From Candidatus Villigracilis affinis (GTDB taxonomy: Bacteria > Chloroflexota > Anaerolineae > Anaerolineales > Villigracilaceae): 64,000 nucleotides of DNA. The position numbers were made by a program, and so were the translations under genes. The stretch is from the NCBI GenBank assembly GCA_016718275.1, contig JADKEA010000003.1:15651-79650 (forward strand). The letters run 5' to 3'. The notes beneath the pieces are model-generated. The model was not told the origin of the DNA. It did not search any database and worked only from the letters and a program-made list of their open reading frames with translations. Positions 9,604-24,573 of this stretch are shown here, piece after piece. Position 1 is the stretch's first letter. Each line of letters opens with the position of its first letter.

Positions 9604-10962
9604 ATGCCCCAAACCACCATTTCATGTCCCCGTTGTAAACAAATGATTCCCGCGAACGTCGAGCAGTTGTTCGATGTGACGCACGAACCCGCCTCCAAGC
9701 AGCGCCTGTTGAGCGGACAGTCCAACCATGCCCGCTGTCAGTATTGTGGTTATGAAGGCCGCCTTGCAACACCCGTCGTATATCACGATAACGAAAAAGA
9801 ACTGCTGCTGACCTTCTTCCCGTTTGAATTGGGTTTACCCGTCAACGAGCAGGAAAAAATGATCGGACCCTTGATCAAGCAGGTGATGGATCGTCTTCCG
9901 CCTGAAAAACGAAAAGGCTATTTACTTAGTCCGCAGGCCAACCTGACCTATGAATCGATGATCGAGACCATTCTCAACAAGGATGGAATTTCATCTGAGA
10001 TGATCAAGACTCAGCAGGACCGCGTCATGCTGATCGAGAAGCTGATCCGCATGACCTCGGCAGATGCGCGCCTTGAGTTGATCAAGCAAAACGAAGCCGC
10101 CATCGATGAACAATTCTTCTCCCTGTTCAGCCGCATCGCGCAGAACGCCATGCAAAGCGGACAGGAATCCATTGCGCGGGCATTGATCGACCTGCAAAAA
10201 CAATTGCTGGACGAAACCGCGTTTGGCCGTCAGCTGAAGGAATCTGTCGCGGAGCTTGAAGCCGCTCAAAAGGTCCTGCAGGATGCGGGGCAAAGCCTTA
10301 CCCGCGAAACCCTGCTTGATTTCGTCCTCGAATCGCAGACTGATTCCCGTATCCGCGCTTATGTTTCGCTTGCGCGCGGCGGCATGGATTATGTCTTCTT
10401 CCAAAATCTTTCGGACAAAATCGAAAAGGCCTCTGGCGATGAAAAGGTACGGCTGGAAGGCATCCGCGAAAAACTGCTGGGATTTGTCGGCGATGTGGAT
10501 AAGCAGATTGAAGCGCGCTTCAAACAGGCGCAGGACTTTGTTGAGTCGCTGCTGGCACAGGATGACATTGAAAAGGTCACACAAGAAAATATCGATAACT
10601 TCACCCAGGATTCTGTGGAAGTAGTCAATCAATTGCTGCGACAAGCTTCCGAGAAAAATGATTATGCCCGCATGGGTAAACTACAAAAAATGGTGCAGGT
10701 CTTGCAGGCTGCCAGTGCACCCCCGCCAGAGATCGCATTCATTGAGCAATTGCTCCAGGCTCCTGATGAAGCCGCTGTGGATGCGATGCTTGCGCAGAAC
10801 GATGCCATGGTCAACCAGCAATTTGTGGATGCATTGAGCGGCCTTGTTGCCCAGATGGATTCGCAAGGCGCGGAAAACCTCGAAGCCAAGGCAATGAGCG
10901 AAAAACTCACCGAGATTTACAGAGTTGCGTTGAAGCGAGTGATGAAAAAGAATATGGGATAG
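9604..10962 (+). CDS. CpXC-type zinc-ribbon domain protein with a long helical C-terminal region; function unknown.
   Basis: The N-terminus carries CPRC...CQYC Cys pairs. It is a 452-aa ORF with no competing frame. Confidence 0.7.
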   Translation: MPQTTISCPRCKQMIPANVEQLFDVTHEPASKQRLLSGQSNHARCQYCGYEGRLATPVVYHDNEKELLLTFFPFELGLPVNEQEKMIGPLIKQVMDRLPPEKRKGYLLSPQANLTYESMIETILNKDGISSEMIKTQQDRVMLIEKLIRMTSADARLELIKQNEAAIDEQFFSLFSRIAQNAMQSGQESIARALIDLQKQLLDETAFGRQLKESVAELEAAQKVLQDAGQSLTRETLLDFVLESQTDSRIRAYVSLARGGMDYVFFQNLSDKIEKASGDEKVRLEGIREKLLGFVGDVDKQIEARFKQAQDFVESLLAQDDIEKVTQENIDNFTQDSVEVVNQLLRQASEKNDYARMGKLQKMVQVLQAASAPPPEIAFIEQLLQAPDEAAVDAMLAQNDAMVNQQFVDALSGLVAQMDSQGAENLEAKAMSEKLTEIYRVALKRVMKKNMG

Positions 10963-12229: not shown

Positions 12230-13489
12230 TTAGAAATTAGGGGGTATGCGTAGCACTTTCATCATCACGCCTGGACGCGGTTCGAGGGTCGCACCCATAT
12301 GCGCGTGGATTTTGTCTGCGTTCATTGGCTCAAATGAAAAGGTTTGTAACAGTCTGGCCATCACGATCCGCGCTTCGGCTTGACCAAAGGCCGCGCCGAT
12401 GCATGCACGCGGACCGCCGCCAAAGGGGATGTAACTCATCGGCGGGGTCTTTCGTCCGTGGGCGAAACGTTCGGGGCAGAAATCGTCGGCGTTCTCCCAA
12501 ACAGATGGGTCGCGGTGGGTGAGGTAGATGGAATAAAACATCCTTTCGCCAGCAGGGACTGTGCCTTCTGCAAATTCCATGTTCTCTGCCACGCGGCGAT
12601 TGCCAATATGAATGGGCGGATACAGCCGCAAACTTTCCTTGATGACGTGGTCAAGCAGTGGTGACCTGTCTTTTGAGTTCACTTCTGAAACGACATGCGC
12701 ATGTGTTTCAGGGTGCTGACCTAGCAGGGCAAAGATCCATGCCAACAGGGCAGTGGATGTGTCGTGCCCGGCGATCATCATCGTCAACATTTGGTCACGG
12801 ATTACCTTGTCCGTTAAGCCCGCGTCAATTAAATGCTGTAACAGGTCTTGGTGTGTTTCTTTCGTCTTTCTTCTTTCATCAATGATCTCAAACAAATAGT
12901 CATCCAACTCGCGCAACGGCTTGCGGAACCCGAAACGCGGAATGTTTCGCCAGATGATCCACGCGCCCGGAGAGATGAAATCGATCGCTTTGAGGATCGG
13001 ATTCCAGATGCGCGGCAAGTCTTTCCAGACATCTTTACTGAACAAGGTTTGCATGATGATGAGCAGGGCGATCTTGCGACTTTCGACGAGCATATCCACT
13101 GTATCGCCGTTTTTCCATTGTGAAGTGACCCGGTCGGTCTGTCCGATCATCATTTGCGTATAGCCAGAGAGGTTCGACGGGTGCAACGGCGGTTCCATGA
13201 GTTCACGATAGCGGTCATGTTCCTCGCCATCGGTGATGAGTACACCGCGCCCCAGCAGATCGGTCACGGGGTCGGTATTGCGCCAAAGGAGTTTGTCCCG
13301 TTCGGTCACAAGCACTTTGCGGGCCGCCTCCGGACCGAAGACAACATAGGGACGAAAGCCTGGAAGCGGAATTTGAAAGAAGCGCCCGACATGTTGGGCC
13401 ATCACTTTTAATGGGCCAAGAGGCGATCTTGTTTCGAAGAGCGCGCGCATTGCGGCGCGCCCGAGTTCAGGTGTGATTTTTGAATTCAT
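12230..13489 (-). CDS. Cytochrome P450; given its operon context, a candidate carotenoid-modifying enzyme.
   Basis: Heme-thiolate loop FGGGPRACIGAAF, I-helix MIAGHDTS and K-helix ESLRL. Confidence 0.9.
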   Translation of the reverse strand: MNSKITPELGRAAMRALFETRSPLGPLKVMAQHVGRFFQIPLPGFRPYVVFGPEAARKVLVTERDKLLWRNTDPVTDLLGRGVLITDGEEHDRYRELMEPPLHPSNLSGYTQMMIGQTDRVTSQWKNGDTVDMLVESRKIALLIIMQTLFSKDVWKDLPRIWNPILKAIDFISPGAWIIWRNIPRFGFRKPLRELDDYLFEIIDERRKTKETHQDLLQHLIDAGLTDKVIRDQMLTMMIAGHDTSTALLAWIFALLGQHPETHAHVVSEVNSKDRSPLLDHVIKESLRLYPPIHIGNRRVAENMEFAEGTVPAGERMFYSIYLTHRDPSVWENADDFCPERFAHGRKTPPMSYIPFGGGPRACIGAAFGQAEARIVMARLLQTFSFEPMNADKIHAHMGATLEPRPGVMMKVLRIPPNF

Positions 13490-14022
13490 GGTTGAAGGTT
13501 TGAAATATCCTTGGTCATGTAAAGAACGAGATCGTCATCCACGATAACGTTTTCACCGTATTTGAGATGATGGCCTTTTTTGTAAAGTCCACGCCCATCA
13601 GGGATGTAGCCGCGGCGGGCATACATGCGTTGGGCTGATCCATAATCAGTGGTCAGTCCCACGCCGATCCCCGCGATCGGGCTGACTTTGGCAACTTCGG
13701 CTTCCGCCAGATCCATTAACTGCGTGCCGATTCCACGCCTGCGGAATTTCGGCAAAACATTGAAGTCGCTGATCTCGGGAATGTTCTTTTCAACGAAAGG
13801 CGCATAATCTGGAAAGCCCACCCAGATGGTGAGATAACCCGCGAATTCCCCGCCGACGAAAGCGACAATGACAATGCGGTCACCGAGAAATTGCTCAACT
13901 AAATAACCTTCGTATTGATGGGCGGGTTTATTCCAGCCAAGTTCTTGAAAAGCCTGCACGATTTCTGGGATATCGTTTTCTCCCATTTGTCGAAATGTAA
14001 CTTCAAGTTTTTCCATTTGCAT
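13486..14022 (-). CDS. GNAT family N-acetyltransferase.
   Basis: Acetyl-CoA motif [14 protein letters not shown]. An internal ATG at 14022 or 14016 is preferred, because the longer ORF overlaps the photolyase 3' end. Confidence 0.8.
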
Positions 14023-15355
14023 TCCATCGTTCTTTCGACTCGCCGTATGCCGTAAGGGTTCGATTCTTATCGCGTGTGATGATCGGCCTCTCAGGATAAC
14101 CACTTACTTTGATTTCTTTTTCCCACGGCGCGTGAATTTCCTTTGCGTTCAATCCGCGCAGTTCATGGACCCATTTGCGAATGTAATCGCCGTGCGGGTC
14201 GAATTTCGCGCTTTGCAGAACGGGGTTGAAGATTCTGAAATAAGGCGCGGCGTCGGTGCCAGTGCCTGCCGTCCATTGCCAGCCGCCGTTGTTCGCGGCG
14301 GGGTCGCCATCGAGCAGATTTTCCATGAACCATGCTTCGCCCCAGCGCCAGTCGATCAACAGATCCTTCACTAAGAACGAAGCTACGATCATGCGAGCGC
14401 GGTTGTGCATCCAGCCCGTTTCTTTCAACTGACGCATTGCTGCATCCACAATGGGCACACCCGTTTTGCCTTCTTTCCATTTTTCGAATTCATCAGAGTC
14501 ATTTCGCCACGGGATACTTGCCAACGCTGCATTAAATGCCCGATGACTGACATATGGAAAATGATACAAGATCTGGATATAGAACTCACGCCAGATCAAT
14601 TCGTTCAACCAGATTTCAGCGCCTCGGGACTCCGCCGAAGCCTGTCTTGCCGTGCTGACAGCTTGTCTCAGCCCGAGCATTCCAAACCGCAGGTACGGCG
14701 AAAGCGATGACGTGCCATCCAGATCCATGCGGTTGCGGGTCTCGTCGTAGGAATGGATTCGTTTGTAGGCAAAGTCTTCAAGCCGCACGAGCGCTTCCTG
14801 CTCGCCTGCAGGGAAAAGCGGATTCACACTGAAAGCGGGAATTAATTCTGATGAGATCCCAACAGGTGTGGAGATCGATTTTGGCGCGGGAACAACCTCA
14901 ATTTTATTTAATTGCGCCTTCCATGTTTTGGAATAAGGCGTGTAAATCGTGTACGGTTTGCCATCCTGCTTGAGCACATCGTTTGGATGATGGACAGTTT
15001 GTCCATGAAGCAATTTCAGAGGCAGTTCGTTTCCGATGCGTGAGTCGCGTTTGCGGGCGTAGGGTGTGAAATCCTCTTCGGCGAAGATCGCTTCTGCTTT
15101 TGTTTGCTGGAGCAGTTGCCGCAGTATTTCAACGGGTTTACCTGTGCGGAGGACAAGATAAGAGCCGCGCTGTTTCAAATCCTGGTCGAGGGCGTGCAGG
15201 CCTTCGTAGAGGAAACTTCGTCGGCGCGGAGATTGAGAGGAAAATGCCGGGTCGAGGATAAAGACTGGGATGACGTCACCAGCCCTCAGCGCGGAGTGAA
15301 GCGCAATATTATCCGTCAGCCTTAAGTCGCGGCGAATCCACCAGATCGAAGTCAT
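14003..15355 (-). CDS. phr: Deoxyribodipyrimidine (CPD) photolyase.
   Basis: The N-terminus [16 protein letters not shown] and the FAD-binding C-terminal region ([26 protein letters not shown]) are present. Confidence 0.9.
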
Positions 15356-15972
15356 GCGAATTGACGCTCCATATTTTTTCCGTTGATCTTGAGTCTGATG
15401 CTGTTGTTACGGTCGATATCAAGTTTGCCTGTGTTGCCCGTGTTGTCACTGAAATTGAGGAAGCCGTACGCGCGGATGCGGGTGCGGCCAATGAGCGAGA
15501 GCGCAAGTTCGCTGGTGAGAACCCCTGTGAGTTCGGCGGTGTACGCACCCGATGTGAAATTGAATTTGGATGGGGCGGGCATGCCGAGTCCGCGCAGGCC
15601 GACCGTGGTGCCAGTGATCTCTTCGCTGCCTGAGAAAATATCGCCATTGGGCATGGTGGCTGTATAAGTGATAAGGTAATGCGGCGAAGTGGATATCAGT
15701 TTTGCGGTGACATTCGCGCCTGTGAGCGGGTCTGGCTCGGATATCTCCGCGCCTGTGGAGTTGAATTGCGGCTGGTAATAGGCGCGTCCAAAAGAGGTCG
15801 ATGAGGTGACGGCATACATGGCAATGTTAGCCAGCGCCTGTTCGGTTTTCCCCGCCGCAATAAGCTCGGGGATGGACATCAACCAACGGGTCTTGTGCAT
15901 GCGGCGTACCACGTAGCCGAGCAGGGTGATGCCTGCAGGGGGTAACTCGTAGCGGGTGATGTTTTCGGGCAT
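15352..15972 (-). CDS. Hypothetical protein, first gene of the photolyase operon.
   Basis: 206-aa ORF from ATG 15972, preceded by caGGAGttgacc. The track ORF instead starts at TTG 16011. It overlaps the phr start by 4 nt. I recognise no family. Confidence 0.65.
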   Translation of the reverse strand: MPENITRYELPPAGITLLGYVVRRMHKTRWLMSIPELIAAGKTEQALANIAMYAVTSSTSFGRAYYQPQFNSTGAEISEPDPLTGANVTAKLISTSPHYLITYTATMPNGDIFSGSEEITGTTVGLRGLGMPAPSKFNFTSGAYTAELTGVLTSELALSLIGRTRIRAYGFLNFSDNTGNTGKLDIDRNNSIRLKINGKNMERQFA

Positions 15973-16061
15973 GGTCAACTCCTGAACCATTATTAACCAC
16001 AAAGGTTTCAAGCTTTGAATTATTTTGTATCTTTTGCCTGTGACACTTTGTGGTTGATTTA

Positions 16062-17282
16062 TTAATCCGATGCGGGAACGGGCGCGGCTTTGCTTTGCTT
16101 CAACGTGGCGACGATGGGGTGGTTATAGATCATGATGAAGACATAAATGCTGACGCCGACCATGACAACCGCACCAAATGCACCAGGCGCCCATGTGCCG
16201 ATCTGTTGCAGTAGAACGCCGCCCAAAAGCGGGGCAATGATGCGTGTGGAGCTTTCCACTGCGGCAGACAACCCAAGGATGCCGCCGACTTCCTGCGGAG
16301 CAACGGCTTTGGTGAGTGTGCTGGAAAGCAAGGTGTTGAGCAGGCCGCCTGATAAGGCGGTGGGAGTCATGATGATATACAGCCACAGCACCGATGGAGC
16401 CAGCGCCCAACCCAGCAGGGAAATTCCCATCAAGACGACGGAGGCTGTGATGAGTACATCTTCACGGAAGCGGCTGGTGAGACGGCCAACGAGGAATCCC
16501 TGCACGATGACTGAGAGCACGCCGACATAGGTTAGGACAAAGCCCGTGTCGCGCGCAGTGAGGTTGAATTTAGCCAACGCATACAAAGAGAATATCGTTT
16601 GGAAGATCGCAAAGGCGAGGCCAAAGAAGAAGCGGGTGATGAGCAGGGAACCAGTGAACGGGCGCTGGAACGCAACCAGCAAAGCGTTCAAAGTAACGGC
16701 GGGCCGTTTTTCGTTCATTTGGCTGCGTTTTTCTTCGGTGAGTGATTCAGGCAGCCAGGCATAAATGAGAATGAGATTGATGAATGAGATTGCCGCTGCG
16801 GCAAAGGCGGGCACAGCGTAACCCCATTGGCTGAGCAATCCGCCGGTGACGGGGCCGATGATGAAGCCGAGGCCGAAGGCTGCGCCGATCATACCCAAAC
16901 CTTTTGAGCGGCTCTTCTCGTCGGTCACATCGGATATGTAGGCCTGAGCCACGCTCAAATTTCCGCCTGTTAAGCCATCCAAAATACGGCTGGCGAAGAG
17001 CATCCACAAGGCATTGGCGAAGCCGAGCAGCAAAAAACCAAGGAAGGTCCCGAAGACGCTGAGCAGCAAAACGGGGCGGCGACCGAAACGGTCAGAGAGG
17101 CGGCCGAGAATCGGTGCGCCGATCAATTGCATTACCGCGTACGAAGCGATCAAAATCCCCGTGGTGGTTTCATTGGCTTTGAAAGTCTCTGCGTAATAAG
17201 GCAGAAGCGGCAAGATCAGACTGAATCCGAGCAGGTCGATAAATACGACGAGGATGATCGAGAAGAGACGTTTGTTATTCAT
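16062..17282 (-). CDS. MFS transporter (Tet/TCR-like drug:H+ antiporter family).
   Basis: 406 aa with about 12 TM segments and the MFS motif GRLSDRFGRRPVLL. Confidence 0.85.
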   Translation of the reverse strand: MNNKRLFSIILVVFIDLLGFSLILPLLPYYAETFKANETTTGILIASYAVMQLIGAPILGRLSDRFGRRPVLLLSVFGTFLGFLLLGFANALWMLFASRILDGLTGGNLSVAQAYISDVTDEKSRSKGLGMIGAAFGLGFIIGPVTGGLLSQWGYAVPAFAAAAISFINLILIYAWLPESLTEEKRSQMNEKRPAVTLNALLVAFQRPFTGSLLITRFFFGLAFAIFQTIFSLYALAKFNLTARDTGFVLTYVGVLSVIVQGFLVGRLTSRFREDVLITASVVLMGISLLGWALAPSVLWLYIIMTPTALSGGLLNTLLSSTLTKAVAPQEVGGILGLSAAVESSTRIIAPLLGGVLLQQIGTWAPGAFGAVVMVGVSIYVFIMIYNHPIVATLKQSKAAPVPASD

Positions 17283-17291
17283 AATTTCCTT

Positions 17292-17774
17292 TTACGTTGC
17301 AAGCAATTCTTTATTCATGTTCTCCAGCAATTCGAGGATTTCCTCGTTTGCTGGAATATCGCGCGCGTCATGCCCATAATGGACGAAGCGCGCGATCCCA
17401 TTTTTATCAATAGTTACCTGGGCGGGCATGCGTCCAAACTTGAAGAGATTGACCTCCTGCCCGTAGCGTTTCAAGACCGTATGGCCGGGGTCAGGCAGTC
17501 CGATGAAAGGCAGGGAATTGCTGCTCCAATACAACGAAAATGCGAGGCCGTTTTCGGGGCCGACCACCACGATCACGGTATCTTGTGCTGTGAATTTGTC
17601 ATAATCCTGGCGCAACTGCGCCATGTGCCGTCGGCAGTAGGGTCAGAAAAAGCCGCGATTGAAAACCAGAAGGACATTCTTCTTTGTTTGGAAATCTGTG
17701 AGGTTAATTTCGTTTCCGTTGAAATCGGTCAGCGTGAAATTTGGTGCGGGCTTATTGAGTTCGGCGCGGCTCAT
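17292..17774 (-). CDS. AhpC/TSA-family peroxiredoxin-like protein with in-frame TGA (codon 44, 17645..17643); candidate selenoprotein with a U-P-Y-C redox motif.
   Basis: ATG 17774 overlaps the upstream stop (ATGA). The translation is MSRAELNKPAPNFTLTDFNGNEINLTDFQTKKNVLLVFNRGFF-TGA-PYCRRHMAQLRQDY..., continuous and in frame with ORF 17292..17624. The hairpin GGCGC-AGUU-GCGCC lies at 17609-17622, 21 nt after the TGA. Confidence 0.7.
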
Positions 17775-18118
17775 ACAGGGATCACCAGGATGACTCCGAA
17801 AATGATTTCAACCACAAGACTGATGACATTGGATTGAGTAACGGATTTATCCACGAACAAGGAAATGCCGCGCACCACCGCAATGCCGAGGTAGGCAATG
17901 CCGAGCATGGCATATGCCACAGGCGAATTAAGAAATAGGGGCGCGGCGCCAAGGGCGATGAAGAATCCGCCCAGCACAGCGCGGATCTCGGTAATGCCGC
18001 GTCCACCTTCGGGACGGAGGCCCGTAAACCCCGTAACTGACTCTGGCTTGAAGAGTGAAACCAACCCAGTGAGGATGGTGGCGATTGCTGCGATGATTTG
18101 CAAAATTTGAACGATCAT
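17771..18118 (-). CDS. Small membrane protein (DUF4345-like).
   Basis: 115 aa from ATG 18118 with four predicted TM helices. The upstream part of the 203-aa track ORF overlaps the neighbouring gene. Confidence 0.7.
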   Translation of the reverse strand: MIVQILQIIAAIATILTGLVSLFKPESVTGFTGLRPEGGRGITEIRAVLGGFFIALGAAPLFLNSPVAYAMLGIAYLGIAVVRGISLFVDKSVTQSNVISLVVEIIFGVILVIPV

Positions 18119-18177
18119 TGTTTTCCTGAATTTAATAGACTTGATATTTATGAAGCCGTGATCGCTGTAGATGAAAA

Positions 18178-19044
18178 TTACAAGCGGGGAATTAATACGG
18201 GCGTGTTCTTTTTGTAGGTTTCGTAATCTTCCTGCCCGCCCCATTTTTGGTCGGCCTTTTTCTCGAGCAGGGGAACGCCGCTGACGCGTGTCAGGAGCAG
18301 GGTGACGAACAGAGGAGAGATCAGCGCAAACCATTGCCAGCCTTGCAGAACAGGCAGGGCGATCACTGCAATGCCCAGCCAAAGGACGATCTCACCAAAA
18401 TAATTTGGGTGACGCGATCGAGCCCACAAGCCTGTCTGAATGAATTTGCCTTTATTTGCAGGATCCGCGTTGAAGCGGCTTTTTTGAGAATCAGCCACAA
18501 CCTCGAATACAAATCCGAAAACCCAGATCAGAAGGCCGATGATGGCAAATGCATCCAATTCTTTTCTGTTGCTTGTCGTAATGGCGACCAGCGCGGCGGC
18601 CATGGTGAACGTCACCCATAAGCCTTGAATGGTCCAAACGTTTAGGAAGCGGATAAAGGATGGTTTGATTTCATCAAAACGGTCATCCTTGCCTGCTTTT
18701 TTAATTCGGCCGAACAGGAAGCTGCCCAGACGAACCGCCCAGATGATCACAAGCGCCGCGAGAAGGATCGACCTGCCATCAACGCCTGCACTGAAAAGGA
18801 TCGCGATGACAATGACCGAAATGTATGTGAGGCTGCCGGTCAGGTCGAAGAATTTTTCAGTCTGCATCAAATAAGCAGGGATAAAGACCAGCCACTGGAT
18901 GAGAAAGGCCAGCCCAACTGACAAGGCAAATAATGGAACTCCAGCAATCAAAGCTCCGCCCTGACTGCCCGCCAAGGCGACCAGAATGCCGATCAATATC
19001 AAAATGGGAAATGCGATAAGCGCGTTGCGATCTGTTGTCTTCAT
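18178..19044 (-). CDS. DUF1295 / steroid 5-alpha-reductase-like membrane protein.
   Basis: 288 aa from ATG 19044, polytopic, with the C-terminal motif RSRHPNYFGEIVLWLG. Confidence 0.75.
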   Translation of the reverse strand: MKTTDRNALIAFPILILIGILVALAGSQGGALIAGVPLFALSVGLAFLIQWLVFIPAYLMQTEKFFDLTGSLTYISVIVIAILFSAGVDGRSILLAALVIIWAVRLGSFLFGRIKKAGKDDRFDEIKPSFIRFLNVWTIQGLWVTFTMAAALVAITTSNRKELDAFAIIGLLIWVFGFVFEVVADSQKSRFNADPANKGKFIQTGLWARSRHPNYFGEIVLWLGIAVIALPVLQGWQWFALISPLFVTLLLTRVSGVPLLEKKADQKWGGQEDYETYKKNTPVLIPRL

Positions 19045-19219
19045 GAATGGTTTCCTTTTTTGGCTCTCCCGTTTCTGACGGGATTGAACTACAAAGAGAA
19101 TCTTTTTGCCGCGAATTACATGGATTTTCGCGAATTTGATTTTGAAATTCGCGGCTAAGGTCTTCCGCTGTCCCGGTAAAAACGGGAGAGCATCTTTTTT
19201 TAATTTTGGCGGTGCAGGA

Positions 19220-19918
19220 TTAAAACCCGCGTTTCTGACCTTGCCACGGGGCTGGGGTGTCGTTAAGGAATTCTTCCACACTGGGGCCGCGCAACTGGGC
19301 GAGACGCCATGTGCCGTATAAATAACTCAACGCCAATAACAGGATCGTGGCGGGCCAGCCAGTGATGAAGTTGACCATGGTCAATGAATTGACATCTGCA
19401 TTTTGAAAAAATAAAAACTGTAATAGCAGGCGGGCGGCAAAGAAAACTGCCCATGCGAAAGTCACTTCGCTGTATGCAGGCATCACCAGTGCATGCCAGT
19501 ACCAGTCGAGCGGCCAGCGGCGAGCTAGGTAACTGCTCCATGCCATCATGGGGCGGCGAATGACCAGACTTAAGACCGTCAACAGCAGAGTCATGCTTCC
19601 ACTGACGAGCCCGGGCAGAAAGAATCCCTCTGACCTTCCAAGGAACCAGGCGATGCCGATGGCGGCCACCACACTACCCACACCGGCCAGAGCGTAAACC
19701 AATGATTGTCTGCGAATGACTCGAATAACTGCAAAGATGATGGAAACGATCAGCGCGCTCCACATTGCGGCTTGAAAATTGACCAGACCGTTGACCATCA
19801 AAAAGATGATCGGCGGAAGGATCGCATCCAGGAAGGAGTTGCGCCCTGTTAAGACCGTTTGCAACTCTTCGAGGAGCTCACGCCCTTTGCCAGGCTGGGG
19901 AATGATCTTTTCAGGCAT
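19220..19918 (-). CDS. Polytopic membrane protein (DUF3159-like), function unknown.
   Basis: About 232 aa from ATG 19918 with multiple TM helices. The family assignment is tentative. Confidence 0.6.
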   Translation of the reverse strand: MPEKIIPQPGKGRELLEELQTVLTGRNSFLDAILPPIIFLMVNGLVNFQAAMWSALIVSIIFAVIRVIRRQSLVYALAGVGSVVAAIGIAWFLGRSEGFFLPGLVSGSMTLLLTVLSLVIRRPMMAWSSYLARRWPLDWYWHALVMPAYSEVTFAWAVFFAARLLLQFLFFQNADVNSLTMVNFITGWPATILLLALSYLYGTWRLAQLRGPSVEEFLNDTPAPWQGQKRGF

Positions 19919-20237
19919 GCTTCCCGAGCCAGAACTTGCGCCAATCATTGCCGCTGTTTTGCAATGCGATGAAGGCATAGAGACTGCCAGCGAAGAAGCC
20001 GAGGGTCATCATGGCTACCGTCCACAGGATGGCGACAGGCAGGGACTTTTCACGATAGATGATCCATGCCGAGAAGAGGGTGAAGCCAGTGTACAAGTCT
20101 ACGAGGGAGACAATGCCCCACGGCATGGATGCCAATTGGCTGCCTTCGCCGAAAAAATCTCCAATGGTGAATCCGTAGATGAGTACTGCGGTCATGGCAA
20201 GCATGCCAAGAATGGAAATGAGTTTTGCAATTTTCAT
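19911..20237 (-). CDS. Small membrane protein (DUF1475-like).
   Basis: 108 aa from ATG 20237 (MKIAKLISILGMLAMTAVLIYG...) with 3-4 TM helices. Confidence 0.65.
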   Translation of the reverse strand: MKIAKLISILGMLAMTAVLIYGFTIGDFFGEGSQLASMPWGIVSLVDLYTGFTLFSAWIIYREKSLPVAILWTVAMMTLGFFAGSLYAFIALQNSGNDWRKFWLGKHA

Positions 20238-20241
20238 GAAC

Positions 20242-21078
20242 TTATTCCTTTGAAATGCAGGCAAACCCCAGTGCGCCGATGCCGAGATGTGCGCCAAGCA
20301 CCGGTGTGATCTGCACAATTGAAACTTCGCCGTTTGGCAGGAAGGCGTGTATATTTTCGCGTAACGCTTCGGCTTCCTCTTGAACACCGGCATGCAGGAT
20401 CGCCAGTTTTTCGTAGGGCGCGTATTCTTCCAGCCAGGAAAGCAGGCGTTCGGTTGCGCGCTTTTGGGTGCGGGTGCGATGGGCGGTGGCTTTTCCCATG
20501 TGCATATGAAGCAGGGGTTTGACTTGCAATAGCTCACCGAATTTCGCAATGGCAAAATTCATTCGTCCGCTGCGGCGCAGATATTCGAGTGTTTTTAGAG
20601 AGGCAAAGACGTAGGTGCGTTTCATCACTTCCTGCAGGGTTGAAATGATCTCTTCGACCTTTTTCCCGGCTTTGGCCATGATCGCCGCTTTTTCAACGAG
20701 AAAACCTGTCCCGAGGCTGAGCTGGCTTGAATCGAGCACTGTGACGGGGATGCGGGTGAATTGCAGGGCGGCAATGCGTGCCGAATTGATCGTTGCACTT
20801 AACGTCTCCGAGATGTGAATGGACAGGATGGCTTGTGCGCCTTCGTCAGCGAGGCGGTTGAAAACCCTGGTAAATACATCAGGCCCGGGCGCGGCGGTTT
20901 TCGGTGACGGGGAGTAGCTAGGTAATTGGGTGTAGAACTCGCTGCGGGTGAGGTCAACACCATCCAAAAAGGTTTGGTCGCCCACATTGATATTCAACGG
21001 AATTACGGTAATGGATTGTTGATCTGTAATTTCTTCAGGTAGGTCACAAGTGCTGTCAGTAACGATGCGGACGCTCAT
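20242..21078 (-). CDS. DegV family fatty-acid-binding protein.
   Basis: 278 aa from ATG 21078. VRIVTDSTCDLP is the typical DegV N-terminus. Confidence 0.85.
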   Translation of the reverse strand: MSVRIVTDSTCDLPEEITDQQSITVIPLNINVGDQTFLDGVDLTRSEFYTQLPSYSPSPKTAAPGPDVFTRVFNRLADEGAQAILSIHISETLSATINSARIAALQFTRIPVTVLDSSQLSLGTGFLVEKAAIMAKAGKKVEEIISTLQEVMKRTYVFASLKTLEYLRRSGRMNFAIAKFGELLQVKPLLHMHMGKATAHRTRTQKRATERLLSWLEEYAPYEKLAILHAGVQEEAEALRENIHAFLPNGEVSIVQITPVLGAHLGIGALGFACISKE

Positions 21079-21079
21079 G

Positions 21080-21652
21080 TTATTCCTTCTCCTGGTCTTG
21101 TGGTGCAATGGGTGGCGACACTTGCGTGGGAAACATGTGATGCAAAAGCGAGATGATCTGGAAGGCGGCATTGGGTTCGAAGGTGTAGAAGCCTTCATAG
21201 AAGCGCTGACCTTCTTCCGGGTCAATTTCTTCAGCGAGCAGGGTGGCATAAATGCCCGGACCATAGGCCACAACGAACCAGTATTTTTCGAGCGGCGTTC
21301 CACTGGTATCGATGCCTGTTGTGCGCGCAAGTTGTGGAAGCGGCGCATCTGAAACACCGTAAAGCCACAGGCCTTTGGACGCTTCGGCTACTTTTGTATA
21401 TTGTCCCAATTGTGCGTTGATACGGGAGAAATATTGAAACGAAACATGTGTGTCTGCACCGCCGAGGGTATTGATGACAGAGTCTTCGATCATGTGGCTG
21501 ATCTCGATCATGCTTTTCACGGAAAAGATATAACGAAAATTGGCGTGTTGCAGATCCTGCTGCTTAAGACGGTTGATATAACCCTCGGTTCGCGGGGGAA
21601 ATAAAGGCAGGAGTTTGTGGTAGAAAGCTGAAAGCGTATCTTGTTTTGTCAT
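21080..21652 (-). CDS. Putative sensory-domain protein (DICT-like, tentative), translationally coupled to the MerR/B12 regulator.
   Basis: 190-aa ORF whose start overlaps the regulator's stop (ATGA). The domain call is from memory of the DICT family and is uncertain. Confidence 0.6.
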   Translation of the reverse strand: MTKQDTLSAFYHKLLPLFPPRTEGYINRLKQQDLQHANFRYIFSVKSMIEISHMIEDSVINTLGGADTHVSFQYFSRINAQLGQYTKVAEASKGLWLYGVSDAPLPQLARTTGIDTSGTPLEKYWFVVAYGPGIYATLLAEEIDPEEGQRFYEGFYTFEPNAAFQIISLLHHMFPTQVSPPIAPQDQEKE

Positions 21653-22971
21653 GGTTGGTTTTGCCTAGCCTGGTCATTTAACCAAATTTTGATCGGCGAG
21701 CCCTGACCGTTGATGTGCTTATCCACGGCGCGGGAATAGTTTTCCATAAAGTCAGCCAATTCCTTTTGCGGGCGCTGGTGTGATTGCATCAAGACCTTCA
21801 GCCATTCCAATTCGGCGTTGACATGTTCGATATTTCCAAGCTGCAGGGCGGCGGCGATGTTATCGCCGAGGAAGTGGATGCCAGTATCGATCCCTTCGGA
21901 TACGATGGGTGGAATCATTTCCTTGATGGTGCTTTCGATGTGCAGACGTTTGGCGTTGAAGAATTCAAGCGCAACCTGATATTCATTCGTCATGCTTTTT
22001 GCCTGCACTTTGGGCGAATTGCCTTTTAGAAGCGTTTCCACTTTTTCGATGGCAGAGTCCACGCTGTTGCCGAGGTAATGACCTGGGATATGGTCTTTGA
22101 TGCCCGGATGCAAGTTGAAAATGCGTCCGCCGTAGCCAACGGGAATCTTCATTTCTGTGAGAGAGTGGGCTGTGGCGTGCAATGCCGCTGCCGTGATAAG
22201 TGTCTGCGCGACGAGGACGACTATGTTGGCGTGAACTGCTGAAACGGTTTCGGCGAATCTTTCCGCGGGGACATTTGCTCCCAGATAAATGACTCGGAAT
22301 CCACGCCGACGAAGGAGCAGGCAGAGCAGCAGGGGAGTGAATGTGTGCCACTCGTTGGGCGGGCATCCTACCAGCACGGTCTGTTTGAGGGTCGGGGCGG
22401 GGGATGCGCTGAGTAATGCGTCGAGTCGGCGCATTGCCAGACCTGATGCGAAATGTTCCTGCTGAACCGAAGCATTGTTTGAATACCAAAGCCCGCCGAT
22501 CTCGGCCATGCCCTTTTGCAGTACTTCTGTGCAAATGACTTCCACCGGGAACATGGAAAATCCCTGGTTCAAAACCTGTTCGGCGGTCGATTCACTAAAG
22601 TTCAGGCAGGCCTCGATCCATTGCGAACGCAGGGAATCGAGGCTGGTATCGGATGAAAGGTAAATGGCAGGAGTCCCCAACGGGGCGATGACTGTCGAAG
22701 GCGCAAAACCAGCCAGCGGGTCTGCACCAGATGCGTTGTGTTCGTTCCACAAATCCACTGCGCGGGAGATCGAAAGTCCTTCCGATTGCCTTCCCATCAG
22801 CCATTTGATCGTCTCGATATCGTATTGCGAATACAAGCGATGCCCGCCCGCCGTGCGTTGAGGCATGGGGATACCGTACCTGCGTTCCCAGGCGCGCAGG
22901 GTATCTGCGGCGATGCCTGTTTCCTGCAGGACGACTTTCAAGTTGAAGGCGGGGTTCTTGCTAATAGACAT
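21649..22971 (-). CDS. MerR-family transcriptional regulator with a cobalamin (B12)-binding domain (CarH/LitR-like) and a ~150-aa C-terminal extension.
   Basis: N-terminal MerR HTH: LKVVLQETGIAADTLRAWERRYGIPMPQRTAGGHRLYS. B12 motif elements: NEWHTF (E-x-H), AQTL and GYGG. At 440 aa it is longer than the ~300 aa usual for CarH/LitR. Confidence 0.8.
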   Translation of the reverse strand: MSISKNPAFNLKVVLQETGIAADTLRAWERRYGIPMPQRTAGGHRLYSQYDIETIKWLMGRQSEGLSISRAVDLWNEHNASGADPLAGFAPSTVIAPLGTPAIYLSSDTSLDSLRSQWIEACLNFSESTAEQVLNQGFSMFPVEVICTEVLQKGMAEIGGLWYSNNASVQQEHFASGLAMRRLDALLSASPAPTLKQTVLVGCPPNEWHTFTPLLLCLLLRRRGFRVIYLGANVPAERFAETVSAVHANIVVLVAQTLITAAALHATAHSLTEMKIPVGYGGRIFNLHPGIKDHIPGHYLGNSVDSAIEKVETLLKGNSPKVQAKSMTNEYQVALEFFNAKRLHIESTIKEMIPPIVSEGIDTGIHFLGDNIAAALQLGNIEHVNAELEWLKVLMQSHQRPQKELADFMENYSRAVDKHINGQGSPIKIWLNDQARQNQP

Positions 22972-23037
22972 GGTTGGACTCCGGTGACAAATTGGTGGAC
23001 TGGTTGCAAAGGTTTTGCACGGTTATTGTACCGCTTA

Positions 23038-24573
23038 TTAACCTTCCGCAGCAGCCTGTTCCAATTTGTACCCTTCCACCTGCAAGCCTTTGTACTCTTT
23101 GAGAATTCTCTCAGTTGTCAGGCGGGCTGAAAGCAGAACGATGGGCAGACCTGTGCCGGGGTGTGTAGATGCGCCTGCGAAGTACAGGTTCTTGTATTTT
23201 TTGTGGCGATTGTGCGGACGCAGATACCCGACCTGCCAGAAATTGTGACTGAGGCCAAACGCCGAGCCGTTGACGAGATTGAAACGTTCCTTCCATGTCT
23301 TGGGCTGGTACACGATCTCGAACTTGAGATGCGCTTCGAGATCTGCGGCATCCATTTCCGTGGCGAGGCGGTCGAGAACATAACGGCGGGCACGCGCAAC
23401 CATTGCATCCCAATCCTGTGCGGAGCGGGCATCGAGATGGCCGACGGGGACAAGCACATACAGCGTGTCTTGACCTTCAGGCGCAGCGGCTGGGTCGGTG
23501 CGTTTGGGTGCATGCACGTAGAATGACGGCACTTCGGGAAGGGTGTGTTCATTGAAGATCTTCTCGAACGAGGCTTTGTATTCACCGCCGAGGAAGACGT
23601 TGTGATGCGCGATCTGTGAATATTCCTTGTCCACACCCCAATAGAACATGATGGTGGAGCAGGTATACAGTTTTTCGTTGATAAGTTTCTTTGCTTCGGC
23701 GCGGTCGGGCAGAAGCTGGTCGTAAATGTAGGGCAGGTCAGCATTGCCGACGAAGATATCGGCGGTCAATTCGCGGCCATCTTCCAGTGTTAAACCTGCC
23801 ACTTTCGAACCTTCAACCTTCAACTTCTTCACTGGCGCATCGTAGATGAATTTCACGCCCAGTTTTTCAGCGACCGTGGTCAATGCCTGAATGCCGGCAT
23901 ACATGCCGCCCATCGGATACCAGACACCTTCTGCAAGTTCGGTGTACTGGAGCAGGGAGTATGTGGCGGGCGCATCATAGGGGCTGAGACCCAGATACAT
24001 ATTTTGAAAGGTGAATGCAGCCTTGAGTCTTTCATCCTTGAAGAATCGGCCTGTATTGGTGTAATGCTTGCCCAGTGCCTTAAGCTGGAAGATCAAAGGC
24101 AGGTTGGACAGGCTGAAATATTCGAAGATGTTGTAAAAGTTGCGCCCGACGAATTTTTCGAGCGAGATCTTGTAGTGCTTGCTGCCTTCAGCAATGTAAT
24201 TCAGGAAACCAGTAAAGGCGGTCTTTTCCACTTTTTCGAGCTGAGTTTGCATATCGCCGATGTTCGAGGTCAATTCCAGTTGCAGCCCATCATCAAAGCG
24301 GACTTTGTAGGTGGGGTCGATGCGGCGCAAGTCGAGATGATCACTCATCTTTTCGCCGAGCGAGGCAAAAGTTTCCTCCCAGACCTCAGGCATGAGGAAC
24401 AAGGTGGGGCCGATATCGAAGCGGTGGCCGTCTTTGACGATCTGGTTACAACGTCCGCCGGGGGTGTCATTTTTTTCCACGACGGTAACATCGTAGCCAT
24501 TTTTCGCGAGGCGGGCGGCAGTGGCAATTCCGCCAATTCCTGCGCCGATCACTACTGCGGTCTGTTTTCGCAT
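23038..24573 (-). CDS. crtI: Phytoene desaturase.
   Basis: FAD fold VIGAGIGGIATAARLAKNGYDVTVVEK, 511 aa, with the conserved C-terminal motif NLYFAGASTHPGTGLPIV. Confidence 0.92.
   Translation of the reverse strand: MRKQTAVVIGAGIGGIATAARLAKNGYDVTVVEKNDTPGGRCNQIVKDGHRFDIGPTLFLMPEVWEETFASLGEKMSDHLDLRRIDPTYKVRFDDGLQLELTSNIGDMQTQLEKVEKTAFTGFLNYIAEGSKHYKISLEKFVGRNFYNIFEYFSLSNLPLIFQLKALGKHYTNTGRFFKDERLKAAFTFQNMYLGLSPYDAPATYSLLQYTELAEGVWYPMGGMYAGIQALTTVAEKLGVKFIYDAPVKKLKVEGSKVAGLTLEDGRELTADIFVGNADLPYIYDQLLPDRAEAKKLINEKLYTCSTIMFYWGVDKEYSQIAHHNVFLGGEYKASFEKIFNEHTLPEVPSFYVHAPKRTDPAAAPEGQDTLYVLVPVGHLDARSAQDWDAMVARARRYVLDRLATEMDAADLEAHLKFEIVYQPKTWKERFNLVNGSAFGLSHNFWQVGYLRPHNRHKKYKNLYFAGASTHPGTGLPIVLLSARLTTERILKEYKGLQVEGYKLEQAAAEG

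What the first reader, a model, noticed from the sequence alone, without database searches (positions are those of the whole stretch)
17292..17774. In-frame TGA at the redox-Cys position of an AhpC/TSA peroxiredoxin: candidate selenoprotein (U-P-Y-C)
The ORF track only shows the C-terminal 110 aa (17292..17624). Reading upstream in the same frame gives a perfect thioredoxin-fold N-terminus. It starts at ATG 17774, which is overlapped ATGA-style with the stop of the preceding gene, a sign of translational coupling. That reading is interrupted by a single TGA (17645..17643).

The TGA sits exactly where this family carries the first Cys of the (W/F)-C-P-Y-C motif: ...VLLVFNRGFF-[TGA]-PYCRRHMAQLRQDY. 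A Cys-to-Sec swap in a CxxC/UxxC motif is the classic signature of bacterial Prx-like and thiol-disulfide-oxidoreductase selenoproteins.

Twenty-one nt after the TGA the mRNA can form GGCGC-AGUU-GCGCC (17609-17622). The G in its apical loop lies 27 nt from the UGA, within the spacing described for bacterial SECIS elements.
Basis: partly seen in the sequence, partly recalled or inferred. Interest (0 to 1): 0.78.

Follow-up and report, generated by a model that had tools for sequence, protein, structure and literature searches.

The report
Selenocysteine redoxin gene, mis-annotated as truncated
The in-frame TGA is real and almost certainly encodes selenocysteine in a small thioredoxin-fold redox enzyme that hundreds of Chloroflexota genomes share and that databases record as a truncated "peroxiredoxin"; it is a genuine but fairly ordinary member of a known class of bacterial selenoproteins.

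Summary
A minus-strand reading frame runs from ATG 17774 to TAA 17292 and has a single in-frame TGA at 17645-17643. AhpC-TSA/Redoxin homology spans that TGA.

The TGA is conserved. All 80 species-representative genomes fetched carry it, and so do at least 74 of 78 assessable metagenome loci. Rare relatives carry TGC (Cys).

Most "full-length" database homologues show Trp at this position. That is an artefact of gene calling with table 4: their DNA reads TGA.

This includes synonymous sites (Ala GCG, Gln CAG and Leu UUG all at 0 bits), while other codons are saturated. It meets all four criteria of the published bacterial SECIS model.

Sec44 aligns with the first Cys of the ResA CxxC motif, not with the peroxiredoxin peroxidatic Cys. 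The protein is therefore a U-x-x-C "Prx-like thiol:disulfide oxidoreductase / redoxin" selenoprotein, which is a known class.

The Sec machinery could not be checked in this genome. Published work reports SelB in Anaerolineales.

This is a new member of a known kind, of moderate-to-low interest, and its main value is as an annotation correction.

The parts
17292..17774 (-). Complete selenoprotein coding sequence: 160 codons plus TAA. It encodes a thioredoxin-fold AhpC-TSA/Redoxin domain with the active-site motif F-F-U44-P-Y-C47.
   Evidence: Translation. Pfam hits span the TGA. Orthologues are collinear, with the same start and no other stops.
17643..17645 (-). Sec codon UGA (codon 44).
   Evidence: It is TGA in 80 of 80 genome loci and in at least 74 metagenome loci; rare relatives carry TGC. 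It aligns with the first Cys of the ResA CxxC.
17608..17623 (-). SECIS hairpin U-GGCGC / AGUU loop / GCGCC-A. It overlaps codons M51-Q56, and its loop begins 25 nt after the UGA.
   Evidence: Nucleotides +21 to +34 are invariant (+21 in 84 of 85 distinct homologues; +22 to +34 in all 85). Position +35 is only C or U, which keeps a G-C or G-U pair. Synonymous entropy is zero at A52, Q53 and L54. Folding energy is -10.0 kcal/mol. It meets the bSECIS criteria quoted. 99% of cells are paired.
17626..17636 (-). Small lower hairpin UGC(C)-N3-(G)GCA between the UGA and the SECIS. It includes the invariant Cys47 codon UGC. Its role is unproven.
   Evidence: UGCC at +9 to +12 and G at +17 are invariant. 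The G is the third position of a codon whose amino acid varies among R, K, A, G and M. C18 and A19 are also invariant. Three pairs never vary and the fourth forms in 43 of 82 sequences.
17292..17624 (-). The 110-aa fragment that ORF finders and GenBank annotations report, starting at Met51. It is an artefact of reading the UGA as a stop.
   Evidence: The same truncation is annotated as GAP15703.1 'peroxiredoxin' (Longilinea arvoryzae) and MBN2119276.1 'redoxin domain-containing protein'.
17771..18118 (-). Upstream DUF4345 small membrane protein (115 aa). Its TGA stop overlaps the selenoprotein ATG (ATGA), so the two are likely co-transcribed or translationally coupled.
   Evidence: Sequence. 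Pfam DUF4345, 4.3e-09. It lies within 4 kb of the Sec codon in 29 related loci, directly upstream in the top-scoring ones listed.
16062..17282 (-). Downstream MFS transporter. Its start codon lies 9 nt after the selenoprotein stop, so it is probably in the same operon.
   Evidence: Pfam MFS_1, 1.1e-65. It is adjacent in 21 related loci.

Best explanation
The locus 17292-17774 (minus strand) is one gene for a 160-residue cytoplasmic thioredoxin-fold redoxin whose codon 44, UGA, is decoded as selenocysteine.

Proposed decoding (inferred): when the ribosome reaches the UGA, the mRNA hairpin 22-37 nt downstream (UGGCGC-AGUU-GCGCCA, with G-U in its tetraloop) is bound by SelB-GTP-Sec-tRNASec. This delivers Sec instead of allowing termination.

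Proposed chemistry (inferred): Sec44 sits at the N-terminal cap of helix alpha-1, with Cys47 one turn later. This U-x-x-C pair is the selenium version of the ResA/TlpA CxxC. The selenolate attacks an oxidised substrate (a disulfide, sulfenic acid or hydroperoxide). Cys47 resolves the adduct into an intramolecular selenenylsulfide, and a thioredoxin-type reductant recycles it.

Proposed role (inferred): the gene lies in a conserved DUF4345 - Sec-redoxin - MFS unit. That unit sits inside a cluster with a photolyase, a carotenoid desaturase and a CarH/LitR-like B12 regulator, which suggests a role in (photo-)oxidative stress.

Shown here: the conserved UGA, coding selection on both sides of it, the nucleotide-level constraint on the hairpin, and the fold and active-site alignment. 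Inferred: SelB binding, Se incorporation, the chemistry, the substrate and the regulation.
For: - TGA conservation: 80 of 80 genomes and at least 74 metagenome loci, across protein identities down to about 58%.
- The "W" in 58 of the 120 nearest database proteins is TGA translated with table 4. L001 and L002 both have TGA there and do not translate to the query under table 11.
- True Cys forms exist: TGC in L003, L004 and L094, and CxxC in P0123, P0129, P0130, P0131, P0186 and P0192.
- The N-terminal 43 codons are under the same codon-position selection as the rest of the gene, with no other stops in 83 sequences.
- Synonymous sites are frozen only at C47, A52, Q53, L54 and R55. All other conserved degenerate codons have entropies of 0.57-2.33 bits, most near their maximum; other Leu columns use 5-6 codons.
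- Distant Cys forms do not keep the HMAQLRQ peptide. The recent Cys form L094 has a stem-breaking GCG>GCA change.
- The hairpin meets the published bSECIS criteria: 6-bp stem, 4-nt loop with G at position 2 followed by U, 25-nt spacing, -10.0 kcal/mol.
- A sister UxxS/UxxA subfamily has a different 6-7-bp hairpin with a G-first 3-nt loop starting 21 nt after its conserved UGA.
- TGA is a normal stop in about 15 of 50 long ORFs of the window.
- The ResA alignment places U44 and C47 on the CxxC. An AF2 model of the Cys form (pLDDT 88.6) puts residue 44 at the start of helix 45-56. Foldseek finds BCP, AhpE and ResA with TM 0.74-0.86.
- Literature: Anaerolineales single-cell genomes and A. thermophila UNI-1 encode SelB (PMC4959059). 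UxxC Prx-like and redoxin selenoprotein families are listed in PMC13188914.
Against: - No selA, selB, selD or tRNA-Sec was seen in the window or in about 1.4 Mb of related loci. This is uninformative, because only 64 kb of this genome is available.
- The hairpin shows no compensatory double changes, only G-C>G-U and U-A>U-G. The structural support therefore rests on invariance, not covariation.
- The folding energy of the 48-nt stretch is not exceptional: z = -1.37, and 19 of 200 shuffles fold as well.
- There are no selenium-labelling or proteomic data.
- Substrate, reductant and regulation are inferred only from fold and gene neighbourhood.
Confidence: 0.9

Rival explanations
1. SelB-independent read-through. 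The UGA is suppressed by a near-cognate tRNA that inserts Trp or Cys, and the conserved hairpin acts only as a read-through or pausing stimulator.
For: The Sec machinery has not been demonstrated in this genome. The hairpin shows no covariation, and its stability alone is unremarkable.
Against: The hairpin fits the SelB-type bSECIS model in spacing and in its G-U loop. The position is the nucleophilic Cys of a CxxC, and Cys homologues exist, which is the classic Sec/Cys pair. SelB is reported in the order. A TGC codon would be a simpler way to insert Cys, and it occurs only rarely.
Confidence: 0.04
2. The UGA terminates translation. The functional product is the 110-aa C-terminal fragment initiated at Met51, as annotated in GenBank, and the upstream part is a separate short peptide or a leader.
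For: Gene callers and GenBank annotate exactly this fragment. An ATG lies 7 codons after the UGA.
Against: The fragment would lack beta-1, beta-2 and the whole active-site motif of the fold. The upstream 43 codons are under coding selection in the same frame in 83 sequences. Nucleotide conservation lies downstream of Met51 and base-pairs around it, which is not the pattern of a ribosome-binding site. Sequences whose Met51 is Leu still keep the frame (L018).
Confidence: 0.02
3. The gene is a pseudogene or carries a sequencing error: a TGC/TGG>TGA change in this assembly.
For: A single-base change from TGC or TGG would give TGA. One relative has TTA and one protein has R at the site.
Against: The same TGA occurs in more than 150 independent assemblies, with intact frames and purifying selection.
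Confidence: 0.01
4. The organism reads TGA as a sense codon genome-wide (translation table 4 or 25), which would explain the Trp seen in database homologues.
For: 58 of the 120 closest database proteins show W at the site.
Against: Those W residues are TGA translated with table 4 on short contigs; the genes do not translate to the query under table 11. In the window, TGA ends about 15 of 50 long ORFs, including the photolyase, the MerR-B12 regulator and the upstream DUF4345 gene. The relatives are Chloroflexota.
Confidence: 0.01

Closest known systems
Prx-like thiol:disulfide oxidoreductase selenoproteins (PF00578, UxxC/UxxU). Listed as predicted with high confidence in PMC13188914 Table 1, with representative WP_010940744.1. 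PMC1794560 reports them in Geobacter, Syntrophus aciditrophicus and Desulfotalea.
   Same: Same Pfam domain. Sec is the first residue of a UxxC redox motif. A SECIS lies directly downstream in the coding region, and Cys homologues exist. Relatives at 65-67% identity occur in Smithella, Desulfosarcina and other Deltaproteobacteria, the lineages in which this family was described.
   Different: The members here are mostly Chloroflexota (Anaerolineales and related orders) and are annotated as truncated proteins.
Redoxin family protein selenoprotein (PF08534, UxxC; HEU0032618.1) in PMC13188914 Table 1.
   Same: PF08534 matches at 4.9e-19 over aa 7-139, with a UxxC motif.
   Different: Identity with that entry is untested. 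Pfam alone cannot separate it from the PF00578 family.
[quoted passage not shown]
   Same: A sister subfamily found here (L088, L089, L098, L111, L146) has LRGF-x-U-P-[YF]-[SA], i.e. UxxS/UxxA, with its own SECIS-like hairpin.
   Different: The window's protein keeps the second Cys (UxxC) and uses a different hairpin sequence and register.
SelL-related redox protein (NCBIfam NF040769) and SelL.
   Same: It is the best NCBIfam match, E = 1.3e-18 over aa 8-105. It belongs to the Prx-like thioredoxin-fold group, and the motif sits at the same position.
   Different: The score of 67 bits is well below the 120-bit cut-off, and the C-terminal half of the model does not align. The motif here is UxxC, not UxxU.
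ResA/TlpA thiol-disulfide oxidoreductases (CxxC; PDB 1st9, 3c71, 4nmu).
   Same: The active-site alignment g-x-W-C-P-x-C / g-f-f-U-P-Y-C is exact. Foldseek gives TM up to 0.85 on the target. The cis-Pro-type G-R-M-P117 loop is invariant.
   Different: The protein has no signal peptide or membrane anchor and so is presumably cytoplasmic. Sec replaces Cys. The NF002854 score of 46.9 is far below the 170 cut-off.
BCP/PrxQ and AhpE peroxiredoxins (PDB 3drn, 1xvw) and the Sec-peroxiredoxin family (TxxU).
   Same: These are the best whole-chain structural matches, TM 0.82-0.86, and share Pfam AhpC-TSA.
   Different: In the alignment with 3drn the peroxidatic Cys aligns with Cys47, and Sec44 takes the Thr position. 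The motif Pro corresponds to Arg40 and the catalytic Arg aligns with Gln119. The known Sec-Prx carries Sec at the peroxidatic position (TxxU).
E. coli fdhF SECIS (from general knowledge) and the bSECIS consensus model (PMC13188914, Fig. 2 legend).
   Same: A hairpin lies in the coding sequence just 3' of the UGA, with a small apical loop containing G followed by U and spacing within 16-37 nt.
   Different: It is a plain 6-bp stem with a tetraloop and has no bulged U. It is preceded by a second conserved 3-4-bp mini-hairpin. The sequence is unrelated to that of fdhF.

Membership tests
Bacterial selenoprotein gene (Sec-UGA plus bSECIS) | In-frame UGA conserved among orthologues, with coding selection on both sides | tested here: met
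   80 of 80 genomes and at least 74 metagenome loci carry TGA. The codon-position entropy pattern is the same upstream and downstream, and 83 sequences have no other stops.
Bacterial selenoprotein gene (Sec-UGA plus bSECIS) | Cys-containing homologues whose Cys aligns with the UGA | tested here: met
   TGC in L003, L004 and L094. CxxC in P0013, P0019, P0123, P0129, P0130, P0131, P0186 and P0192.
Bacterial selenoprotein gene (Sec-UGA plus bSECIS) | bSECIS model: loop of 3-9 nt, stem of 4-16 bp, G in the first two loop positions, 16-37 nt from the UGA, MFE <= -7.5 kcal/mol | tested here: met
   Criteria quoted from PMC13188914. The window hairpin has a 6-bp stem, an AGUU loop, 25-nt spacing and -10.0 kcal/mol. 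It is frozen at synonymous sites.
Bacterial selenoprotein gene (Sec-UGA plus bSECIS) | Base-pair covariation supporting the hairpin | tested here: inconclusive
   There are no double changes, only GC>GU (18 sequences) and UA>UG (12); 3 of the 6 pairs in the SECIS helix never vary. A sister subfamily has a different hairpin at a similar distance.
Bacterial selenoprotein gene (Sec-UGA plus bSECIS) | selA, selB, selC and selD present in the same genome | not testable with these tools
   None lies in the 64-kb window or in the related loci. Literature reports SelB in Anaerolineales and in A. thermophila UNI-1.
Bacterial selenoprotein gene (Sec-UGA plus bSECIS) | Selenium demonstrably incorporated (75Se labelling or MS) | not testable with these tools
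   This needs an experiment.
Prx-like thiol:disulfide oxidoreductase / redoxin UxxC selenoproteins | AhpC-TSA (PF00578) or Redoxin (PF08534) domain | tested here: met
   7.8e-20 and 4.9e-19, both above the gathering score.
Prx-like thiol:disulfide oxidoreductase / redoxin UxxC selenoproteins | Sec as the first residue of a UxxC motif at the thioredoxin-fold CxxC position | tested here: met
   The ResA alignment places C-P-H-C on U-P-Y-C. Residue 44 sits at the N-cap of helix 45-56 in the AF2 model.
Prx-like thiol:disulfide oxidoreductase / redoxin UxxC selenoproteins | Sequence similarity to the family's reference proteins (WP_010940744.1, HEU0032618.1) | not tested
   The reference sequences cannot be fetched with these tools. 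The only support is indirect: close homologues in Smithella and Desulfosarcina.
Canonical peroxiredoxin | PxxxT/SxxC active-site motif with the peroxidatic Cys as the catalytic residue | tested here: not met
   With Cys47 taken as the peroxidatic equivalent, the Pro position is Arg40 and the Thr position is Sec44.
Canonical peroxiredoxin | Conserved catalytic Arg | tested here: not met
   The Arg of the 3drn L-P-A-R motif aligns with Gln119. An invariant Arg115 lies four residues earlier, and its role is unknown.
SelL-related redox protein (NF040769) | Score at or above the curated cut-off of 120 bits | tested here: not met
   67.2 bits, aligning with profile positions 1-99 of 173 only.
ResA/TlpA (NF002854) | Curated cut-off of 170 bits; extracytoplasmic with an N-terminal anchor | tested here: not met
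   46.9 bits. The protein starts directly with the fold and has no hydrophobic N-terminus.

The most novel reading that the evidence does not exclude
This U-P-[FY]-C redoxin is the main, and in some lineages the only, selenoprotein that keeps the Sec machinery alive in Anaerolineae. That would explain why A. thermophila UNI-1 is reported to have SelB but no annotated selenoprotein.

It would be expressed as part of a light-responsive CarH/LitR regulon (photolyase, carotenoid desaturase, DUF1295, DUF4345, MFS) as a photo-oxidative-stress defence.

Its 16-nt SECIS and the preceding mini-hairpin are frozen across more than 150 genomes. On this reading they form an unusually rigid two-hairpin SelB recognition module.
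Probability: 0.2. Interest if true: 0.5.

Novelty: new member of a known kind. Interest (0 to 1): 0.35.

Why it matters
- Annotation: at least 583 stretches in species-representative genomes encode a relative. Public records for close relatives give a 110-111-aa "peroxiredoxin" or "redoxin domain protein" lacking its active site. About half of the metagenome-derived entries carry a false Trp at the catalytic residue. Correcting this changes the inferred selenoproteome and Sec-trait distribution of Chloroflexota, a dominant group in sludge, sediments and the subsurface.
- Method: a family that splits into truncated forms and forms with W at a Cys column is a cheap signature of selenoproteins in large protein catalogues.
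- Experiment: a cultured carrier, Longilinea arvoryzae KOME-1, makes the prediction testable. The invariant SECIS is a clean substrate for studying SelB recognition in Chloroflexota.
- Limit: this does not change what is known about how selenoproteins work.

Tried and rejected
- Sec machinery search. ARAGORN and Rfam on the window found only tRNA-Asp. ARAGORN on 60 related loci found no tRNA-Sec. NCBIfam on ten size-matched window ORFs gave TypA, PepF, TilS, histidine kinases and others, but no Sel proteins. tblastn with E. coli SelA, SelB and SelD against the window and about 1.4 Mb of loci hit only the TypA GTPase domain. The result is negative but uninformative.
- Other selenoprotein genes. 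A scan for TGA-bridged ORFs in the window gave 93 candidates; read by eye, without a homology search, none but the target looked like a real coding sequence. E. coli FdhF found molybdopterin oxidoreductases in L030 and L050, but these carry Cys, not Sec.
- Trp at the site. I first took the W in full-length homologues at face value, which would have meant a WxxC family and a nonsense mutation here. I rejected this once the DNA showed TGA.
- Thermodynamic significance of the hairpin. It is weak, z = -1.37, so the argument rests on conservation instead.
- Covariation test. No compensatory pairs were found.
- Rfam at a permissive threshold over 17540-17700 returned only noise; no SECIS family matched at E <= 10.
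- Divergent homologues. One attempt failed because the alignment was too diverse. A narrower alignment worked, but most of the 80 loci returned were again the core family.
- Literature. A supplement that might list Sec-trait organisms is not held in the library.
Full report
**1. The observation**

On the minus strand, ATG 17774-17772 opens a frame that runs to TAA 17294-17292. The frame contains one stop only, TGA at 17645-17643, which is codon 44. The ATG overlaps the TGA stop of the preceding gene in an ATGA arrangement. A mechanical ORF list shows only the last 110 codons, 17292..17624.

With Cys substituted at codon 44, the 160-residue protein matches Pfam AhpC-TSA (7.8e-20, residues 7-129) and Redoxin (4.9e-19, residues 7-139). 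The homology therefore runs straight across the TGA.

**2. An apparent contradiction that became the key evidence**

A search of the large protein collection gave 7,895 relatives. The 120 best fall into two classes. One class is 110-111-aa proteins at 77-97% identity that start exactly at Met51. The other is 150-165-aa proteins at 53-68% identity.

In the alignment, most full-length proteins carry Trp at the TGA column, not Cys. The tally is 58 W, 57 truncated, 2 C, 1 L, 1 R and 1 other. Taken at face value this would make the family WxxC and the window's TGA a nonsense mutation.

I fetched the DNA for two W proteins. In both, the codon is TGA, and the look-up tool itself reports that the gene does not translate to the stored protein under table 11. 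The W is therefore an artefact of gene callers switching to table 4 on short contigs. The two classes are the same thing: genes with a conserved in-frame TGA.

**3. Conservation of the TGA**

A scan of one genome per GTDB species found at least 583 stretches encoding a relative. The best 80 loci have 58-88% identity. Most are Anaerolineales, Anaerolineae, Promineifilaceae, Ardenticatenaceae and Caldilineaceae. The set also includes Smithella and Desulfosarcina MAGs and the isolate Longilinea arvoryzae KOME-1. All 80 have TGA at this codon.

A metagenome scan added 80 more loci:
- 74 are confirmed TGA.
- 2 more show an in-frame stop at the site.
- 2 have TGC.
- 2 are cut off by contig ends.

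True Cys forms exist. These are P0019 (L003/L004, TGC), L094 and P0013, plus more distant CxxC representatives.

In 83 distinct TGA-bearing sequences there is no other in-frame stop across 132 codons. The entropy at codon positions 1/2/3 is 0.82/0.55/1.56 bits upstream of the TGA and 0.67/0.47/1.50 bits downstream. The 43 codons before the TGA are thus translated in this frame. This rules out a pseudogene, a sequencing error and a genuine start at Met51.

Genome-wide reassignment of TGA is also ruled out. TGA ends about 15 of 50 long ORFs in the window, including the neighbouring genes.

**4. The SECIS**

Downstream of the UGA the mRNA folds into two elements:
- a small hairpin, UGCC-GAC-GGCA, at +9 to +19;

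In 85 distinct homologous sequences, nucleotides +22 to +34 are invariant and +21 is A in 84 of 85. Position +35 is only C or U, which keeps a G-C or G-U pair.

The decisive test is synonymous-site variation. Among all conserved, degenerate codons of the gene, zero entropy occurs only at Cys47 (TGC), Ala52 (GCG), Gln53 (CAG) and Leu54 (TTG). Arg55 is restricted to CGC/CGT. Every other such codon has 0.57-2.33 bits, most close to its maximum. Other invariant Leu columns use 5-6 codons (1.7-2.3 bits) and other Ala and Gly columns use 4 codons.

Position +17 is invariably G. It is the third base of a codon whose amino acid varies among R, K, A, G and M. This G pairs with the C of the Cys47 codon.

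More distant CxxC homologues do not keep the peptide HMAQLRQ; they show MDQLQ, LNQLR, VAQLS and similar. The recently derived Cys form L094 has a synonymous GCG>GCA change that breaks the stem. So the constraint acts on the RNA and is tied to the UGA.

Measured against the published consensus model (PMC13188914, Fig. 2 legend), the hairpin compares as follows:

| Criterion | Model | This hairpin |
|---|---|---|
| Loop length | 3-9 nt | 4 nt (AGUU) |
| Stem length | 4-16 bp | 6 bp |
| G in first two loop positions | required | G at position 2, followed by U |
| Spacing from UGA | 16-37 nt | 25 nt |
| MFE | <= -7.5 kcal/mol | -10.0 kcal/mol |

The limits of this evidence should be stated plainly.
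- The stem shows no compensatory double substitutions, only one-sided GC>GU (18 sequences) and UA>UG (12), with 99% of cells paired.
- The folding energy of the 48-nt stretch is not unusual: z = -1.37.
- No SECIS family in Rfam matches the region.

Partial independent support comes from a sister subfamily (L088, L089, L098, L111, L146). Its motif is U-P-[YF]-[SA]. It carries a different 6-7-bp hairpin, (G)CAUCUG-GGN/GUC-CAGAUG(C), whose G-first loop begins 21 nt after its own conserved UGA.

**5. What kind of protein it is**

Sequence search of the PDB gives BCP/PrxQ (3drn, 2.5e-09), ResA (4nmu, 3c71, about 1e-08) and AhpE.

- In the ResA alignment, g-t-W-C-P-H-C-k-k-e pairs with g-f-f-U-P-Y-C-r-r-h. 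Sec44 therefore occupies the N-terminal, nucleophilic Cys of the CxxC, and Cys47 occupies the resolving Cys.
- In the BCP alignment the peroxidatic Cys falls on Cys47 and Sec44 falls on the Thr of PxxxTxxC. The motif Pro corresponds to Arg40, and the catalytic Arg aligns with Gln119.

An AlphaFold model of the natural Cys form P0019 (pLDDT 88.6, pTM 0.86) places residue 44 at the N-cap of helix 45-56, after strand 33-38. Its best structural matches are BCP (TM 0.84-0.86), AhpE (0.82) and ResA (0.74 on the query, 0.85 on the target).

NCBIfam's best model is SelL-related redox protein, at 67 bits against a 120-bit cut-off. ResA, BCP, PrxQ and PrxU models are all far below their cut-offs. No curated NCBIfam model therefore covers this family.

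The protein has no signal peptide or membrane anchor. The best description is a cytoplasmic, Prx-fold, UxxC thiol-disulfide-oxidoreductase-like selenoprotein. It is not a canonical peroxiredoxin.

**6. How it most likely works**

Shown:
- a conserved UGA;
- coding selection on both sides of it;
- an RNA-level constraint on a bSECIS-type hairpin;
- a thioredoxin-fold U-x-x-C site.

Inferred:
- SelB-GTP-Sec-tRNASec binds the AGUU-loop hairpin while the ribosome is at the UGA, and Sec is inserted.
- The Sec44 selenolate attacks an oxidised substrate (disulfide, sulfenate or hydroperoxide).
- Cys47 forms a selenenylsulfide.
- A thioredoxin-type system reduces it.

SelB and Sec-containing formate dehydrogenases are reported in Anaerolineales single-cell genomes. 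A. thermophila UNI-1 is reported to encode SelB without any annotated Sec enzyme (PMC4959059). Chloroflexi are listed among Sec users (PMC1794560; PMC5389517). In this genome the machinery could not be checked. I put 0.9 on Sec decoding, and much less on any specific substrate.

**7. Genomic context**

The gene sits between a DUF4345 membrane protein (17771-18118, ATGA overlap) and an MFS transporter (16062-17282, start codon 9 nt after the stop).

Further upstream lie DUF1295, DUF3159, DUF1475, DegV, a DICT-domain protein and a MerR + B12-binding (CarH/LitR-like) regulator, followed by a CrtI-family desaturase. Downstream lie an unknown 219-aa protein, a photolyase and a GNAT.

For most of these genes, a homologue lies within 4 kb of the Sec codon in 21-31 of the related loci (11-16 for the 219-aa ORF and the regulator), at similar offsets in the top-scoring Anaerolineales loci. 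This suggests, but does not show, a role in light or oxidative stress.

**8. Comparison with what is known, and novelty**

The 2026 review of prokaryotic selenoproteomes lists three relevant families:
- "Prx-like thiol:disulfide oxidoreductase" (PF00578; UxxC, UxxU);
- "Redoxin family protein" (PF08534; UxxC);
- "Peroxiredoxin-like family protein" (cd02970; UxxS).

The Prx-like family was described in Geobacter, Syntrophus and Desulfotalea. Relatives at 65-67% identity occur here in Smithella and Desulfosarcina. The window's gene therefore belongs to a known kind.

Public annotation of the close relatives examined is wrong. GAP15703.1 "peroxiredoxin [Longilinea arvoryzae]" and MBN2119276.1 "redoxin domain-containing protein" are the 111-aa fragments. 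No full-length entry named or accessioned by a source appears among the 120 nearest proteins, and the three checked carry neither.

**9. Verdict**

The label "peroxiredoxin redox Cys" should be refined to "N-terminal Cys of a CxxC-type Prx-like redoxin". This is a new member of a known kind. Its value lies mainly in annotation correction and in offering a clean, testable SECIS in a cultured Chloroflexota relative. Interest is 0.35.

Noticed in passing
window 13486-24573 (minus strand): The stretch looks like a light or photo-oxidative-stress gene cluster. It contains a CrtI-family desaturase (23038-24573), a MerR + B12-binding CarH/LitR-like regulator (21649-22971), a DICT-domain protein, DegV, DUF1475, DUF3159, DUF1295, DUF4345, the Sec-redoxin, an MFS transporter, an unknown 219-aa protein (15352-16011, no Pfam hit), a photolyase (14003-15355) and a GNAT. 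For most of these genes a homologue lies within 4 kb of the Sec codon in 21-31 related loci.
   Followed up: partly
protein hits P0001-P0120; loci L001, L002: This is a database artefact. 58 of the 120 closest proteins carry Trp at the Sec codon because short contigs were gene-called with translation table 4. A family that splits into truncated forms and forms with W at a Cys column is a usable signature of unannotated selenoproteins.
   Followed up: yes
L088, L089, L098, L111, L146 (metagenome contigs): A sister subfamily has the motif LRGF-x-U-P-[YF]-[SA]-R-x-H-L-G-Q-M, i.e. UxxS/UxxA with the resolving Cys lost. It has a different 6-7-bp hairpin, CAUCUG-GGN-CAGAUG, starting 21 nt after its UGA. 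It probably corresponds to the catalogued UxxS AhpC/TSA selenoprotein family.
   Followed up: partly
L114, L116 and L133: In these variants the Pro after Sec is replaced, giving U-H-F-C and U-I-F-C. The UGA and the SECIS are unchanged.
   Followed up: no
L003 / L004 (Cys-form locus), 1-3000: The rare TGC (Cys) form lies next to an RVT_1 reverse-transcriptase gene, a DsbA-like gene and a C_GCAxxG_C_C gene. The last two families also have selenoprotein members. This form still carries the intact "fossil" SECIS hairpin.
   Followed up: no
L005 codon at 1266; protein P0028: Single-base variants occur at the Sec codon: TTA (Leu) in L005 and Arg in P0028. In L005 the SECIS is intact. These are either recent inactivations or assembly errors.
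   Followed up: no
L054 13273-13286: The exact 14-nt SECIS core GGCGCAGTTGCGCC occurs once outside the family, inside an unrelated 215-aa ORF where it encodes LAQLRQ. No UGA precedes it, so it is probably a chance match.
   Followed up: partly
representatives P0140, P0183, P0235, P0257: Among distant relatives there are very long proteins (1188-1717 aa) with 4-6 separate matches to this redoxin profile, i.e. tandem redoxin domains.
   Followed up: no
window 17127-17837 (+): A 236-aa antisense "shadow" ORF lies over the selenoprotein gene. It is longer than the annotated 110-aa fragment and could mislead gene callers.
   Followed up: no
window 9604-10962 (+): This 452-aa ORF has no NCBIfam match at E <= 1e-5.
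   Followed up: no
L051 (Oscillospiraceae MAG, 1.5 kb) and L067 (Cellvibrionaceae MAG, 10.6 kb): These loci carry the family on short contigs assigned to unlikely taxa. In the stretches compared (29 residues around the Sec codon and 60 nt downstream of it), L051 is identical to the Smithella locus L036. Mis-binning is more likely than real presence in those lineages.
   Followed up: no
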